Assembly: GCA_964514565.1 (NCBI GenBank)
Contig: CAZERA010000004.1
Location: 40,793 to 104,792 of the forward strand
DNA: 64,000 nucleotides
Reading direction: 5' to 3'
Source: an uncultured Candidatus Peribacteria bacterium
GTDB taxonomy: Bacteria > Patescibacteriota > Gracilibacteria > RBG-16-42-10
The position numbers are program-made. Below, piece by piece: positions 30,001-36,000 of the stretch. Numbering within the stretch: the first letter of the stretch is position 1; each line of letters opens with the position of its first letter.

Positions 30001-33000
30001 GTATCACGGTTCTTCTGGTATTTCTCAGCAATATGGTAGTCAAGTGTGTGATCACTTTGGTTTTTGGTCATCGTAATATGCGCAAATTGATCTTAAGTTA
30101 CACAGCAATTGTTTTGATCATCATTCTTTTAGCTGTCTTGTTTTTGCACTGGAGTAATTTTAATGTTCAATTCTAGTTTATCAATAGTTACTTTTTCTTC
30201 ACGGTCAGCTAGCATGTTTGGTGTACTGATGCTGTCAGCAAGGGTTTCACGGGCGATATATGATCCACAAGTAGTAAGTACTTTGTGAGCAAGCTCGGTC
30301 TCACTCAGAACTTCGATATTGATGACAATGCGGCCATCTACTTGGTAGCTGGCAGCTTTGCGCATTTCTTGAATGTGTCTGACGATCTCTCGCGCATACC
30401 CCTCAGCAATCAGTTCTTCGCTAAGATTAGTATCCAAGGCTACTACGATATTACCTTCACTGAGCACACTCATGCCTGGTTCTGTCTTGTATACCACTTC
30501 AAATTCCTCAGGACTCAATGTGAATTTATCTGCGACAGTTACTGAACCATTGTCTTCAAATACAATATTTTGATCCCGCGCTGCTTGCATAATAGTTTGT
30601 ACATCATTGCCAAACTTTGGCCCAACAATTGCTGCGCGAGGTTTGATCCCTTTTTGAATAGTAGCTTGATCAGGGCTAGTCATAAACACATTTTTGACAT
30701 TGAGTTCTTCAGCAATTACTTGTAGTTCTTCGGCTTGGAGACGCATAGGAGCAATTACGGTCGCTGATGGTAGTGGTTGCCGAGTTTTTAACTTTTGATT
30801 GGCGCGAATAGCGTGACCTAGATTGACTATATTACGCATGAATGCCATCTCTTCATTGAGAGCTGGACGGACAAAACTAGTAATGCTGCGGGGGAAGCTA
30901 GCCATGTGCACAGATTTTTTGCCTACTAAGTTTCGATACATATGTTCACTGACAAAAGGGACAAAAGGAGCGATTACTTTTACTAGTGTTGTAAGGACAT
31001 GATAAAGTGTTTGATAGGCGCTGTTTTTGTCTTGATCATTTTCAGCTTTCCAGAAACGACGGCGAGATCTACGCACGTACCAGTTGGAGAGATTATCTAC
31101 AAATTGCTCGATCTTATTGGTGGCCTCCCAAATTTGGTAACCATCAAGTTGTTGTTCCACTTCTGCCACCATAGTGTGCAGCTCTGATAGAATCCAGCGA
31201 TCCAGTTTGTGTTCGCTCCATGGCATCACATAGCGATCAATGCTTCCGAGAGCGAATTTGCTTGTAAGTACTTGGTCTGATGGTGTGTGGTTGAAGTATT
31301 TATCGATCATTTTTTTGACCATGCCATTGGCAATGATCATCACTGTTTCACCTGCACATTTTTCTTTTACTTCATCTAGGAAAGAGAAGACACGTTCTTC
31401 CAGATCCAGGTATGATTCCCCTTCTGGAAATTTCTGAGAATACTGGTTGGTAAGACTGTTCAAATAGCTTTCTACATCAGCTGCTAGCTTGCCATCAAAG
31501 GTACCAAGATTGAGCTCTCTCAGTCGATCATCTTCACTGATTGTTACTTGATGAAATTGGGCAATAATGTCTGCTACCTCACGAGTGCGGGTAATTGGTG
31601 CTGCAAAGATCTTGTCGATCTTACTGTGTTTAAATTCTTGGCCAATAGCTTCAGCATCGCGATGTCCTTTTTCTGTGAGGTGATAGGTCTGGTCTTTGTC
31701 ACTTGCCACTACTCCCAGTGGGACGTTTTCTGATTCGGTGTGTTGGACACTGATTACTTTGGTAAATTTCTGTGGCTGAAATTGATCAATATTGGCGTAA
31801 GTGACAAAGAATGAATAGACATTCCATAGTGTCAGCAAAAACTTACGCAAAGATTGTTCTACTAGATTGACTGAGAAATTACGTGGTTGGCTAGGAGGTG
31901 AAGCGTGGAACATATACCAACGAAGTGCATCAGCTCCATGCTTTTCAGTCACCTCCATTGGCTCGACAATATTGCCTAGTGATTTACTCATTTTTAGTCC
32001 TTTCTCGTCCAAGATATGACCTAAACAAATGACGTTTTTATAGGGAGTTTTGTCCCAAATAGCGGTACTGACTGCGAGGAGTGTATAGAACCAGCCACGA
32101 GTTTGATCAATTGCTTCGCAAATATAATCAGCTGGGAAGTAGTTGTCATTGAAATCTTGGTCCTTGATATCAAATGGGTAGTGAACTTGAGCAATTGGCA
32201 TAGCTCCAGAATCAAACCAACAATCAATCACTTCCTCTACACGATGACTGACTCCACCACATTCACAAGGAATGGTGACAGCATCGATGTATGGCCTGTG
32301 GAGATCTCTTTCGCCTTTGTCATTGATTGGGAGATCTTGGCCACTTTTCTTTTGCAACTCGATCATCGATCCCACACACAAGGTTTTGTGACAAGAGTTG
32401 CATTCCCAGACTGGTAATGGTGTACCCCAATAACGATTGCGGGATAATGCCCAATCTTTGATTTCACTCAGCCAGTTGCCAAAGCGCCCTTCTTTGATGT
32501 GTTCAGGATGCCAGTTGATTGCTTGATTGTTTTTGATCAGTTCATCTCTCAGCTGAGACATTCGAATAAACCAAGACGTAATTGCAAAGTAAATCAGTGG
32601 TGTCTTACAACGCCAACAGTGTGGATAATTGTGTTCGTATTTTTCTTTCTTGAGCAACATATTTCTACTAGCAAGATCCTTGAGAATTTCTACATCTAGG
32701 CCTTCTTCTTTGAAATAGCGGCCACTATAGACGCCACTACCATCAATAAATTTACCTTCTTTGTTGACGTGCTGCAGTCTTGGTAAGTCATATTTTTGAA
32801 TCACCTGATAATCCTCCTCACCATAGAGAGCAATATGAACAATGCCAGTACCATCTGTAGTAGTGACAAATGGTTCAGCTACTACGTACCAGCCTTTTTT
32901 CTCGCTAGGATAATAATTCCAGGGCGCTTCATAACCTGTACCCACCAAATCTGATCCCTGGTAGGTGTTTTCTACTGTATACTGAGGTTTTCCTTCAGCA

Positions 33001-36000
33001 TCTTTGGGCAATACATCGCTATAAGCAGCCAAACGATCAGTGGCAATAATAATTGCTGTATTTTGGTCGATCCTGATCTGGCTATATTCAATTTCTGCTC
33101 CTACACAAAGAGCGAGATTTCCCAGTAATGTCCAAGGAGTAGTAGTCCAAGCAGCTAAATAAACTGTCTCACTATCCTTGCTAAATTTCGCTTGGTCGGT
33201 AATTTTAAACAAAGCAGTGAGGGACATATCTTTGACGGTCTGATATTCCTGCGCTACTTCGTGACTAGAGAGCGGTGTACCACAACGACAACAATACGGT
33301 ACTATTTTGAGATCACGGTACAACAATCCTTTTTCCCAGATTTGTTTGAGACACCACCAGACTGACTCGATATAGTCTGGTGAATAAGTGACATAAGGAT
33401 TTTTCATATCTACCCAATAACCAATTCGCTCGGTCATTTCCTCGAAAGCATGTGTGAATTTGTGTACTGAATCTTTACACTTATTATTGAAGGCCTCGAT
33501 GCCGTATTCTTCAATTTGTTTTTTACCAGAAATACCCAGTTCTTTTTCTACTTGTAACTCAACTGGTAGACCATGCGTATCCCAACCTGCTTTGCGTTCA
33601 ATATAAAAACCTTGCATTGTTTTGTAGCGCAAGATGACATCTTTGAAAACGCGTGCTAGTACGTGATGTACACCTGGTTTGCCATTGGCAGTGGGAGGAC
33701 CCTCGTAGAATACAAAGTGTTTGCCATCTTCACGCAAAGTTTGTACTTTTTGAAAAATATTTTCTTGTTGCCAGAAAGCGAGGATGTCTTTTTCTAGTTC
33801 AGGAAATGACTGTTTGACTTGTACAGGAATAAAGGTAGTACTGGCTGGATCTTGTTTCTCGGGGGTATCCATACAATGGTTTAATGGGGTTGTAAGGGGA
33901 AATTTCGTGCGGCAACTCTACCAGCTTTTCTGGGAAATAAAAAGTAAGAGGTATTAAGTAAAAACTTAGGTATTCTTAGCAGAAAGCGATTATTTTCTAT
34001 TGGTCAGGAATATCTTTGTTAAGCCCTTATCTTGTATGTTTGTTTCTGTGTCATTTTTTTGCTTTTGGGTTCTTTGCTCTTTGCTGTAGCCTCTGTTACT
34101 ATCACTCAAAATTACGTTCTTTTGTCATGGAAAATAAACCTTTTAGGCTTGTAGCTCCGTATTCTCCCACAGGTGATCAACCCAAGGCTTTAGCTGCTTT
34201 GATCAAGGGTATTGATGAGGGGAAAGTGCATCAGACTTTGCTCGGTGCTACTGGTACCGGAAAGACGTTTATTATGGCCAATATTATCAGTCAAATTCAA
34301 AAGCCTACTTTGATTTTGGCTCATAATAAGACTTTAGCTGCACAGCTTTATTCAGAGTTCAAAGAGTTTTTTCCAGACAATGCCGTCAATTACTTTGTCT
34401 CATATTACGATTATTACCAACCAGAAGCGTACATCGCCCGGTCAGATACTTATATTGAGAAAGATGCTTCAATCAATGAAGAAATCGACAAGTACCGTCA
34501 TGCTGCTACTCGCAATCTTCTGACTCGTAGAGATGTGATTATTGTGGCTTCAGTGTCATGTATTTATGGTTTAGGCTCGGTAGAAGAATATGGCAATGTA
34601 GCGGAGAAATTGAGTGTGGGTATGAGTTACAAACGTGAAAAACTTTTGCGACATTTGGCTGATCTGCAGTACAAGCGCAATGAAGTAGCGTTCGTGCGTG
34701 GTACCTTTCGGGCTCGAGGTGACGTGGTAGAGATTTATCCTACCTATAGTGATACTGCTCTCAGAGTAGCTTTCTTTGGTGATGAGATTGAGACTTTAGA
34801 TGAGTTTGATACTTTGACTGGAGAGATTGTCGGTAGTTTGCAGTCAATTGAGGTCTTTCCTGCTAAACATGCTGTCACTTCACGTGAAGCAGTTGTTCGG
34901 GCTGTAGAGCAGATCAAGTTGGATTTGGAAGAGCGTCTCAAGGAACTCAATATGATGGGGAAGATTGTGGAGGCCCAGCGTCTCAAGCAACGTACGGAGT
35001 ACGATATCGAGATGATGATAGAGACCGGATATTGTAGTGGTATAGAAAACTATACTCGTTACCTCGGGAATCGTTCGCCTGGAGAACAACCAGCAACGCT
35101 ACTCGATTATTTCCCTGATGACTACATGATGTTTATCGATGAGTCACATATCTCAGTGCCTCAGATTGGGGGAATGTTTAATGGTAATCTCGCTCGCAAG
35201 AAAAGCTTGATTGACTATGGTTTCCGTCTACCATCAGCTTATGATAATCGTCCGCTGACATTTACTGAGTTTGAAGGTCAGATCAATAAAGTAGTTTATG
35301 TTTCTGCTACTCCTCGTGAATATGAATTGGCAAAGTCTGATCATATTGTGGTTGAGCAATTGATTCGTCCTACTGGCTTGCTTGATCCGGTGATTTCAGT
35401 CCGTCCTACTCAGAACCAAGTAGATGATTTGCTCAATGAAATCAGAATGCGAATCAAGGCCGATGAGCGTGTATTGGTTACTACTCTCACTAAGCGCATG
35501 GCCGAAGATTTGACGGAATATTTGCAAGAAGCTGGGATCCGCGTGAAGTATTTGCATTCAGATATTGAAACATTAGTACGTTTGGATATTTTGCGTGATT
35601 TGCGTTTGGGTGTAATTGAAGTGGTAGTTGGTATTAACCTTTTACGTGAAGGTCTCGATTTACCTGAGGTGAGTCTAGTAGCAATCTTGGATGCTGATAA
35701 AGAAGGTTTTTTACGTTCAGAAATGGCCTTGATCCAGACTATCGGTCGTGCTGCTCGTAATGCCAATGGTCAAGTGATTATGTACGGAGATAAGATGACG
35801 GACTCGATGAAAAAAGCGATCAAAGAAACCGATCGTCGTCGTACTATTCAGGCAGCATACAACAAAGAGCATGGCATCACACCAAAGACCATTATTAAAG
35901 AGATCCGAGATATCATGCCTCATGGCGAAATTAAACAAGATGGTGAAGCTCTTCATTCTCTACCACAAGAAGAAATCGCCAAGGTCATCGCTGAGCTTGA

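What a model noticed while it worked through the whole genome (the two positions that open the first line are those of the whole stretch)
30129..33872. Isoleucyl-tRNA synthetase with a histidine-phosphatase domain inserted before its anticodon-binding domain
The only IleRS (g00839, 1247 aa) has a ~160-residue histidine-phosphatase (phosphoglycerate-mutase-like) domain spliced in between the catalytic core and the anticodon-binding domain; the insert keeps its catalytic motifs in sister genera but has lost them in this genus. I read it as a once-active phosphatase recruited into IleRS in the Abawacabacteria lineage (for instance to clear a phosphorylated tRNA end or nucleotide by-product) that is now kept as a structural or binding module. 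New would be a phosphatase domain inside a class I synthetase.
Evidence so far: pfam.tsv: tRNA-synt_1 30-661, His_Phos_1 730-883 (1.8e-27, HMM 23-181 of 194), Anticodon_1 891-1035, DUF5915 1051-1240. Search with residues 690-900 among proteins of 685-2183 aa: 24 proteins at E<=1e-3, all with IleRS families plus PF00300; 9 (57-100% identical in the insert, 1246-1281 aa) share this insertion point, the other 15 (25-39%) align elsewhere in my MAFFT alignment. Motifs: sister lineages have RHTEGE or THTE.E ... R..E ... GES ... THE/THS (Arg-His, Arg, Glu, second His as in the genome's stand-alone homologs g00211, g00878, call 36), whereas this genome and its 3 nearest relatives have QHTESE or NHPEAE and ANG/TQG in place of the Arg and the second His.
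(Added by a program. Inside this text positions count along the whole contig: contig position 40,793 is position 1 of the stretch shown here. "Call 12" and the like, gene names such as g00115 and contig names such as C1 are that model's own, and its searches are not shown. The text may have been shortened before it was handed on; [...] marks where a part breaks off. The agent that wrote the report below was given it as the finding of a first reader that could run no searches.)

Follow-up and report, generated by a model that had tools for sequence, protein, structure and literature searches.

The report
IleRS carrying a dead phosphatase domain
The only isoleucyl-tRNA synthetase of this tiny-genome bacterium carries a complete phosphatase-fold domain that has lost half of its catalytic pocket yet is still strongly conserved, so it probably now serves the synthetase in a non-enzymatic way.

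Summary
Window 30129-33872 (-) encodes the genome's only IleRS (type 2, 1247 aa). A 184-residue histidine-phosphatase fold (residues 703-886) replaces a 5-residue loop at the tip of the first anticodon-recognition domain.

- **Pocket decay.** The six pocket residues are canonically R-H-N-R-E-H. This genome reads Q-H-V-R-E-N. One sister genus keeps all six and another keeps four. On the IleRS tree the losses are stepwise.
- **Not decaying.** The insert has no indels in 8 genomes. dN/dS is 0.025 in the one unsaturated pair. It evolves at 1.0-1.7 times the rate of the IleRS body. It models confidently (pLDDT 94) on short, confident linkers.
- **IleRS looks intact.** All IleRS motifs and 7 of 8 published anticodon-reading residues are kept.

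My reading is a pseudo-phosphatase kept as a rigid non-catalytic module beside the anticodon cleft (about 0.55). Its actual job is unknown.

Phosphatase domains sit in IleRS, ValRS or ArgRS of many relatives, mostly at another site and with intact motifs. This scan has flagged such proteins on other DNA many times, including a degenerate one. Five literature searches found no description. The nearest insert-free relatives suggest this family acquired its copy separately.

The parts
30129..33872 (-). ileS, type-2 isoleucyl-tRNA synthetase, 1247 aa plus TAA stop; the only IleRS of the genome
31767..33872 (-). IleRS residues 1-702: catalytic Rossmann/HUP body with CP1 editing domain, GVHH (67-70) and KMSKS (627-631), and the first ARD1 helix carrying N684 and F688
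   Evidence: N684/F688 equal PmIleRS2 N647/F651 by the alignment; their role is taken from PMC13752280
31215..31766 (-). Inserted histidine-phosphatase-fold domain, residues 703-886, replacing a 5-residue loop of insert-free IleRS2
31740..31745 (-). Q710-H711, the remnant of the RHG motif: Arg replaced by Gln (codon CAA), nucleophile His kept
31722..31724 (-). V717 at the position of the pocket Asn (N in 92% of 52 non-family homologs)
31587..31589 (-). R762, the second pocket Arg, kept (invariant in 60 aligned sequences)
31515..31517 (-). E786, the catalytic acid/base Glu, kept
31326..31328 (-). N849 at the position of the second catalytic His (codon AAT; CAT in sister genera)
30132..31214 (-). 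IleRS residues 887-1247: rest of ARD1 (S929, R937) and the type-2 C-terminal domains ARD2/INS/ARD3 (Q1168, R1171, K1172)
   Evidence: residue roles from PMC13752280
33663..33674 (-). GVHH, the swapped class I signature motif (residues 67-70)
   Evidence: its meaning from PMC10485003

Best explanation
The insert is a pseudo-phosphatase. It is a complete histidine-phosphatase fold that entered the loop at the tip of the first anticodon-recognition domain (ARD1) of this family's IleRS. It lost its catalytic power step by step: first Arg1, then the second His, and in this genome also the pocket Asn. It is now kept because the synthetase needs it as a rigidly mounted, non-catalytic module next to the cleft that holds the tRNA-Ile anticodon loop.

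Shown: the fold is complete, half of the pocket is lost, selection is purifying, the linkers are short and confidently modelled, and the IleRS itself looks intact.

Inferred: catalysis is lost. What the module does is also inferred. The candidates are stabilising or shaping ARD1, tuning tRNA binding and release, or docking a partner.
For: **Fold.** The fold is complete and confidently modelled: pLDDT 94.2, pTM 0.90. The best solved matches are PspA 4ij5/4ij6 (TM 0.84) and PhoE 1h2e (TM 0.82).

**Pocket.** At 710/711/717/762/786/849 the canonical residues are R H N R E H.
- This genome reads Q H V R E N.
- G019 and G068 read Q H I R E N.
- G078 reads N H N R E Q.
- g2 reads R H N R E H.
- g3 reads T H D/E R E H.
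- Arg1 is R in 52 of 52 non-family homologs of alignment A1.
- None of 67 aaRS-embedded domains outside the family lacks Arg1 or His2.

**Order of losses.** The IleRS-body tree (insert masked, 898 columns, 11 outgroups) gives (g2,(g3,g1)) with 95* support. This makes the losses stepwise (codons).

**Selection.**
- There are no gaps in the insert among 9 proteins.
- In the only unsaturated pair (G019-G068), insert dN/dS is 0.025, against 0.008-0.038 in the other IleRS domains.
- The ML distance ratio insert/body is 1.0-1.3 within the degenerate subclade and 0.95-1.0 in the intact genus.
- About 60 of 184 positions are invariant in 8 genomes.
- All 9 of 9 database proteins at least 78% identical in the core carry the domain.

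**Mounting.** The model of residues 630-1050 has pLDDT 88.2 and pTM 0.84. Its linkers are 9 and 6 residues long, in blocks with mean pLDDT above 90.

**Position.** The insert starts 14 residues after F688. N684, F688, S929 and R937 correspond to PmIleRS2 N647, F651, S713 and R721. PMC13752280 reports that these read A35/U36.
Against: - No activity was measured. The nucleophile His711, Arg762 and Glu786 are all kept, so weak or altered chemistry is not excluded.
- Their retention could mean the pocket still matters.
- The non-catalytic job itself has no direct evidence. I could not obtain coordinates, so the distance and orientation of the domain relative to tRNA were not measured.
- pTM is only an indirect sign of a fixed orientation.
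- dS is saturated in 7 of the 8 genome pairs tried, so dN/dS rests on one pair.
- The domain-only tree gave a different, weakly supported order of genera (83/82). That order would need two independent losses of Arg1.
- The insert is acidic (net charge -7 to -12), which argues against direct RNA-backbone binding as the retained role.
Confidence: 0.55

Rival explanations
1. The domain is still an enzyme. With His711, Arg762 and Glu786 it carries out a slower or different phosphoryl transfer, for instance on a less charged substrate, or it forms a long-lived phospho-histidine.
For: - The nucleophile His, second Arg and Glu are invariant in all 8 genomes.
- The two lost residues are replaced by amides in both subclades, with swapped lengths: Q710+N849 in three genomes and N710+Q849 in G078. 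That would fit a preserved pocket geometry.
- Selection on the domain is as strong as on the rest of IleRS.
Against: - Arg1 is R in 52 of 52 non-family homologs. The second His column is H in 94% of them.
- None of 67 embedded domains outside the family lacks either residue.
- This genome has also lost the pocket Asn (V717) and the Ser of the SPL.R motif (A758).
- That such substitutions cripple catalysis in this superfamily is recalled knowledge, not tested here.
Confidence: 0.17
2. The degenerate pocket is a sensor. It binds a phosphorylated ligand (a metabolite, a nucleotide or a tRNA phosphate) but no longer hydrolyses it. Through its rigid link to ARD1 it then modulates anticodon binding and so the rate of isoleucylation.
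For: - Half of the pocket is kept under selection.
- Short, confident linkers join the domain directly to the helix that carries the anticodon-reading N684/F688 (role of the residues from PMC13752280).
- That paper shows that another nested IleRS2 element (INS) tunes kcat and KM for tRNA, so nested modules can set the rate.
Against: - There is no ligand, no binding data and no coordinates.
- Retention of three residues among sequences that are 63-85% identical is weak evidence.
- The loop that would cover the pocket (716-728) is the only low-confidence stretch of the context model.
Confidence: 0.15
3. The insert is a functionless relic on its way to being lost. It is tolerated because it sits in a surface loop.
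For: - Catalytic residues decay progressively along the family tree.
- The closest relatives outside the family do well without any insert.
- Between genera the insert evolves 1.3-1.7 times faster than the IleRS body.
Against: - There are no indels in 184 residues across three genera.
- dN/dS is 0.025.
- The rate equals that of the IleRS body within genera.
- About 60 positions are invariant.
- Every one of 8 family genomes and 9 database proteins keeps it, in genomes of about 1 Mb where dispensable DNA is usually shed (the last point is general knowledge).
Confidence: 0.05

Closest known systems
Bacterial type-2 IleRS (IleRS2), e.g. Priestia megaterium IleRS2 (PDB 8c8u/8c8v/8c8w) and Thermus thermophilus IleRS (1ile)
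   Same: The sequence aligns end to end outside the insert: E 2.7e-270, query 17-702 to chain 4-665 and query 887-1223 to chain 671-1013. It has KMSKS, the CP1 editing domain and the type-2 C-terminal domains. It has the GVHH variant of the signature motif, as in the 8c8w protein. It keeps 7 of the 8 anticodon-reading residues named in PMC13752280.
   Different: A 184-residue phosphatase fold replaces loop 666-670. No solved IleRS has it. [quoted passage not shown]
Small branch-1 histidine phosphatases: PspA/iPSP1 of Hydrogenobacter thermophilus (4ij5), PhoE of B. stearothermophilus (1h2e), GpgP Rv2419c (4pz9), CobC (6e4b)
   Same: Same fold: Foldseek TM 0.79-0.84 over about 182-197 columns, 13-26% identity. 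Pfam His_Phos_1 scores above its cut-off. The nucleophile His, second Arg and Glu are present.
   Different: It is not a free enzyme but nested in a synthetase. It lacks the RHG Arg, the pocket Asn and the second His. It scores below the NCBIfam cut-offs of CobC (87.6 against 162.9) and PspA (80.3 against 350).
Phosphatase-bearing IleRS/ValRS/ArgRS of other Patescibacteria
   Same: The same pairing of a His_Phos_1 domain with a class Ia synthetase. Among the 150 nearest cluster representatives out of 1.84 billion, 52 of the 149 other than the family's own representative P0005 are longer than 300 aa. Of those 52, 39 are IleRS, 2 ValRS and 1 ArgRS. Some carry a domain at this same site A (P0144, second domains of P0029 and P0032, loci L030, L033, L041).
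   Different: Most carry the domain in the zinc-knuckle loop of the catalytic core (site B). All 67 examined keep Arg1 and His2. This family has only site A and an empty site B. Its domain clade is separate with a long stem. A single clade of all site-A domains is rejected at p-AU 0.024. Its IleRS body is sister to insert-free enzymes.
INS subdomain nested in ARD2 of IleRS2 (PMC13752280)
   Same: It is another accessory element nested in the anticodon-side half of IleRS2. It is evolutionarily labile, not needed for catalysis as such, and shown there to change KM for tRNA and kcat (section 8 read).
   Different: INS is an ~80-residue element that the paper does not link to any enzyme family, and it contacts the D-loop. 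The present insert is a whole enzyme fold in ARD1, and no tRNA contact has been shown for it.

Membership tests
Isoleucyl-tRNA synthetase, type 2 (IleRS2) | Scores above the curated cut-off of the ileS equivalog model | tested here: met
   TIGR00392 scores 952.3 bits against a cut-off of 621.4. It is the only locus over the cut-off in the genome.
Isoleucyl-tRNA synthetase, type 2 (IleRS2) | Class I signature motifs HXGH (or the IleRS2-specific G/AXHH swap) and KMSKS | tested here: met
   GVHH at 67-70 and KMSKS at 627-631. The swap is described for IleRS2 in PMC10485003.
Isoleucyl-tRNA synthetase, type 2 (IleRS2) | CP1 editing domain | tested here: met
   Residues 210-418 align to the isolated IleRS editing domain 1wk8 (E 3.8e-26) and to PmIleRS2 throughout. 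Editing residues were not inspected one by one.
Isoleucyl-tRNA synthetase, type 2 (IleRS2) | Type-2 C-terminal organisation (ARD1-ARD3) with the published anticodon-reading residues | tested here: met
   DUF5915 at 1051-1240. The C-terminal part aligns to 8c8u 837-1013. N684, F688, S929, R937, Q1168, R1171 and K1172 are kept; L969 is Y1176. Residue roles come from PMC13752280.
Isoleucyl-tRNA synthetase, type 2 (IleRS2) | Charges tRNA-Ile with isoleucine | not testable with these tools
   Inferred from it being the sole IleRS of a genome that has tRNA-Ile(GAU) and three CAU tRNAs.
Histidine phosphatase superfamily, branch 1 (PF00300) | Sequence and fold membership | tested here: met
   Pfam 93.4 bits against 21.7. 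Model pLDDT 94.2. Foldseek TM 0.84 to PspA and 0.82 to PhoE.
Histidine phosphatase superfamily, branch 1 (PF00300) | RHG motif: Arg next to the nucleophile His | tested here: not met
   Q710-H711-T712. The column is R in 52 of 52 non-family homologs and the next column is G in 87%. The His is present.
Histidine phosphatase superfamily, branch 1 (PF00300) | Second pocket Arg and the acid/base Glu | tested here: met
   R762 is invariant in 60 sequences. E786 is E in 90% of the non-family rows.
Histidine phosphatase superfamily, branch 1 (PF00300) | Second catalytic His | tested here: not met
   N849. The column is H in 94% of 52 non-family homologs and in genera g2 and g3.
Histidine phosphatase superfamily, branch 1 (PF00300) | Phosphomonoesterase or mutase activity | not testable with these tools
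   No assay was possible. Loss of activity is inferred from the two unmet residues and V717. Which residues are catalytic is recalled from the family literature and agrees with the conservation seen.
Alpha-ribazole phosphatase CobC / phosphoserine phosphatase PspA (NCBIfam equivalogs) | Score above the curated cut-off | tested here: not met
   TIGR03162 scores 87.6 against 162.9. NF045917 scores 80.3 against 350.

The most novel reading that the evidence does not exclude
Patescibacteria have repeatedly built a phosphatase fold into class Ia synthetases. They did so at several sites, and in this family separately, in an IleRS whose closest relatives found have no insert. In the Abawacabacteria-type family the domain has become a pseudo-enzyme. 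Its half-kept pocket would work as a ligand sensor wired through a rigid link to the anticodon-reading helix, giving direct small-molecule control of isoleucylation. That would also imply that the conserved value of the whole aaRS-phosphatase pairing is not, or not only, catalysis.
Probability: 0.12. Interest if true: 0.8.

Novelty: new variant of a known kind. Interest (0 to 1): 0.58.

Why it matters
Aminoacyl-tRNA synthetases are among the best-studied enzymes. Accessory domains that they acquire have repeatedly turned out to carry regulatory or non-canonical functions. A whole phosphatase fold nested in the sole IleRS of many ultra-small bacteria has, as far as five searches show, not been described.

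This family offers a natural experiment on what the domain is for. One genus has an intact pocket, one has a partly degraded pocket and one has a half-lost pocket. All three are under equally strong constraint. That pattern says the domain is needed for something other than turnover. It also gives ready-made constructs for testing both the unknown phosphatase function and the non-catalytic role.

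Tried and rejected
**Stand-alone paralog as source or replacement.** The genome's 4 stand-alone His_Phos_1 genes lie far from the insert clade in both domain trees. 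The best is 26% identical. I rejected them as the recent source.

**Neighbouring phosphatase gene.** Earlier notes report a phosphatase gene beside ileS or argS.
- It is not seen here. ileS lies between uvrC, an MgtC/DUF4010 gene and uvrB.
- The two stand-alone loci I held (L038, L040) have no ileS or argS within 1.5 kb.
- The stand-alone match of G098 is on another contig than its ileS.

**Insert as a substitute inorganic pyrophosphatase.** PF00719 gave only weak partial matches in 3 of 8 family genomes. There was no relation to the state of the pocket. Other pyrophosphatase families were not searched. I dropped the idea.

**Unusual tRNA-Ile set.** The set is ordinary: 41 tRNAs, Ile-GAU once, CAU three times, and none reading TGA.

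**dN/dS.** It was unusable in 7 of 8 genome pairs because dS was saturated.

**Remnant of a lost site-B insert.** There is none. That loop is only 4 residues longer than in PmIleRS2.

**Chloroflexi origin of the IleRS body.** Core identity to Chloroflexi-labelled IleRS2 is 60-62%, higher than the 40-57% to phosphatase-bearing Patescibacteria IleRS. The three-way branching is unresolved, so I make no claim.

**Complex prediction.** It was never accepted because the queue was full, so there is no result.

**Literature.** Searches gave no paper on the domain pairing. So did the look-ups in PMC13752280. Their reach is the open-access library only.

Full report
**What is there**

Window 30129-33872 on the minus strand is one open frame of 1247 codons with an ATG start and a TAA stop. 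Pfam finds four domains:
- tRNA-synt_1 at 30-661;
- His_Phos_1 at 730-883 (1.8e-26, 93.4 bits against a cut-off of 21.7);
- Anticodon_1 at 891-1035;
- DUF5915 at 1051-1240.

NCBIfam's ileS equivalog scores 952.3 bits against a cut-off of 621.4. It matches in two stretches that break at the insert. In the 1.12-Mb, 7-contig genome this is the only locus over the ileS cut-off. PF00300 also matches four separate open frames of 206-215 codons.

Against solved structures, residues 17-702 align to residues 4-665 of Priestia megaterium IleRS2 (8c8w), and residues 887-1223 align to 671-1013. So a 184-residue block (703-886) stands in place of a 5-residue loop.
- the insert is 184 residues, not about 160;
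- there are four stand-alone paralogs, not two.

**The IleRS itself looks fully functional**

- It has KMSKS (627-631).
- It has GVHH at 67-70. Brkic et al. 2023 (PMC10485003, passages read) describe this swapped signature motif as specific to IleRS2 and link it to mupirocin hyper-resistance.
- A 2026 paper (PMC13752280; section 8 and search hits read) names eight PmIleRS2 residues that read the anticodon: N647, F651, S713 and R721 in ARD1, and Q961, R964, K965 and L969 in ARD3.
- By the alignments these correspond to N684, F688, S929, R937, Q1168, R1171, K1172 and Y1176. Seven of the eight are kept.
- The genome has an ordinary tRNA set, with one tRNA-Ile(GAU) and three CAU tRNAs.

**The insert is a complete phosphatase fold with half a pocket**

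With a 60-sequence alignment the domain models at pLDDT 94.2 and pTM 0.90. Its best solved matches are:
- the metal-independent phosphoserine phosphatase PspA (4ij5/4ij6, TM 0.84, 24-25% identity);
- PhoE (1h2e, TM 0.82);
- GpgP, TIGAR and CobC.

In the alignment the pocket positions are R, H, N, R, E, H in the non-family homologs. R is found in 52 of 52 rows, H in 52 of 52, N in 92%, R in 52 of 52, E in 90% and H in 94%. Which of these are catalytic I recall from the family literature. The conservation agrees with that.

| Group | Genomes | 710 / 711 / 717 / 762 / 786 / 849 |
|---|---|---|
| this genome | G000 | Q H V R E N |
| genus g1 | G019, G068 | Q H I R E N |
| genus g1 | G078 | N H N R E Q |
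| genus g2 | two genomes | R H N R E H |
| genus g3 | two genomes | T H D/E R E H |

All members of the family also have T or P for the G of RHG and D for a Q that is 92% conserved elsewhere. So even the 'intact' genus departs from the norm.

**The decay is stepwise and specific to this family**

A tree of the IleRS body with the insert masked (898 columns, 11 outgroup sequences) gives (g2,(g3,g1)), with 95* support for g1+g3. On it, Arg1 was lost once in the common ancestor of g1 and g3. The second His was lost in g1.

The codons are compatible with single steps for His2: CAT to AAT or CAA.

The domain-only tree gave another order, g3 outside g2+g1, with weaker support (83/82). That order would need two losses of Arg1.

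Among 67 synthetase-embedded phosphatase domains from outside the family, none lacks Arg1 or His2. Six stand-alone rows show S or N in the His2 column in the same call.

**It is not decaying**

- Among nine family proteins the insert has no gap.
- About 60 of 184 positions are invariant in eight genomes of three genera.
- Synonymous sites are saturated in seven of the eight genome pairs I tried. In the one usable pair (G019-G068, both degenerate) the insert has dN 0.041, dS 1.64 and dN/dS 0.025. The other IleRS domains have 0.008-0.038.
- ML distances of the insert relative to the IleRS body are 0.95-1.00 within the intact genus, 1.02-1.29 within the degenerate subclade, 1.16 in g3, and 1.2-1.7 between genera.
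- All 8 family genomes and all 9 database proteins at least 78% identical in the core carry it.

**How it is mounted**

A model of residues 630-1050 has pLDDT 88.2 and pTM 0.84. The helix that carries N684 and F688 ends at 695. Nine residues later the first strand of the phosphatase begins. Six residues after its last strand the next ARD1 helix starts. Both linkers lie in blocks with mean pLDDT above 90. Only 716-728, the loop after the QHTESE motif, is poorly predicted.

I infer a rigidly attached domain at the distal tip of ARD1, close to the cleft that holds the anticodon loop. I could not measure distances because the tools return no coordinates. The domain is strongly acidic: net charge -7 to -12, against a median of -2 for stand-alone homologs. 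That makes plain RNA-backbone binding unlikely.

**Wider context**

The pairing is common.
- In a sample of 201 genomes of the class, 125 have a match to the insert. By my hand count of the listed rows, at least 82 have it inside an open frame of 900 codons or more; 64 further matches were not listed.
- Of the 22 such loci I opened, 20 lie in IleRS-like frames and 2 are stand-alone.
- Among the 150 nearest cluster representatives of 1.84 billion proteins, only one exceeds 1e-30, and it is the family's own.
- Of the 52 longer than 300 residues, 39 are IleRS or pieces of it, 2 are ValRS (one with four domains), 1 is an ArgRS with a C-terminal domain, 7 are tandem phosphatases and 3 are other.
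- There are several insertion sites. Site B, in the zinc-knuckle loop before xDCWFDSG, is the commonest. Site C lies just after that motif. Site A is the one seen here.

This family has only site A, and its site-B loop is essentially of normal length. Three further results bear on its origin:
- Its domain clade is monophyletic (100*/99*) on a long stem and its position is unresolved.
- A single clade of all site-A domains is rejected at p-AU 0.024. That group was defined after I had seen the tree.
- The sister family of the same order (G098) and the closest database relatives (P0174-176, 67% identical in the core) have IleRS of about 1035-1043 residues with no insert. They form a 100* clade with the family.

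The simplest reading is that this family acquired its copy on its own. A loss in the sister line is not excluded.

**What the scan saw before**

The search of earlier findings returned many earlier notes on phosphatase-bearing IleRS on other DNA. One is a degenerate case that shares sequence words with this insert (e1-4341433). Two others are at this same site. I treated them as leads.
- I confirmed the multiple sites, the tandem copies and the ValRS case on my own data.
- I did not see the reported neighbouring stand-alone gene in this order.

**Mechanism**

Best supported (about 0.55) is a pseudo-phosphatase kept as a rigid, non-catalytic part of ARD1. Its job may be structural, tuning of tRNA binding or release, or partner docking.

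Rivals:
- residual or altered catalysis through H711, R762 and E786 (about 0.17). The paired amide replacements Q710+N849 and N710+Q849 are curious in this respect;
- a non-hydrolysing ligand sensor coupled to the anticodon helix (about 0.15);
- a functionless relic (about 0.05), which the selection data largely exclude.

The substrate of the intact relatives remains unknown. A pyrophosphatase-substitute idea found no support.

**Novelty**

Five full-text searches found no description of the pairing. Neither did the text and the supplements held as text of the 2026 IleRS survey. Subscription journals and closed supplements were not covered. Databases list the domain combination without comment (Pfam columns).

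I rate it a new variant of a known kind: a well-known synthetase with an undescribed nested domain, here in a degenerate state. Interest is 0.58.

Noticed in passing
window 33663-33674 (-), IleRS residues 67-70: The class I signature motif reads GVHH instead of HXGH. This is the first/third-position swap that Brkic et al. 2023 (PMC10485003) link to mupirocin hyper-resistance in IleRS2. The consensus of alignment A2 (IleRS of relatives) shows PGxHH at this motif.
   Followed up: partly
window 36951-38726 (+): The alanyl-tRNA synthetase gene is only 591 codons long (tRNA-synt_2c 6-437, tRNA_SAD 538-580). It is a short AlaRS without the usual C-terminal part. The next ORF is an Xaa-Pro aminopeptidase, not a continuation.
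   Followed up: no
window 30129-30176: The 3' ends of ileS (-) and of the convergent MgtC/DUF4010 membrane-protein ORF (28902-30176 +) overlap by 48 nt.
   Followed up: no
window 26939-36109: ileS lies between uvrC (26939-28855 -) and uvrB (34016-36109 +). No argS and no phosphatase gene is adjacent.
   Followed up: yes
G000:C2:48337-48789 (locus L010): One of the four stand-alone histidine-phosphatase paralogs reads VHG where RHG is expected. It has the longest branch in the domain tree, so it may be a second degenerate family member in the same genome.
   Followed up: no
proteins P0174-P0284, tree: In the core region this family's IleRS is more similar to Chloroflexi-labelled IleRS2 (60-62%) than to the phosphatase-bearing IleRS of other Patescibacteria (40-57% in pieces). 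The branching order is unresolved, so horizontal transfer is neither shown nor excluded.
   Followed up: partly
protein P0064 (689 aa) and P0041 (1161 aa): P0064 is an arginyl-tRNA synthetase with a histidine-phosphatase domain fused to its C-terminus. P0041 is a valyl-tRNA synthetase piece with four phosphatase domains in a row. So the pairing extends beyond IleRS.
   Followed up: partly
window 40379-42088 (-): A 569-aa protein with an S-layer homology domain and a right-handed beta-helix region. It is a likely cell-surface protein.
   Followed up: no
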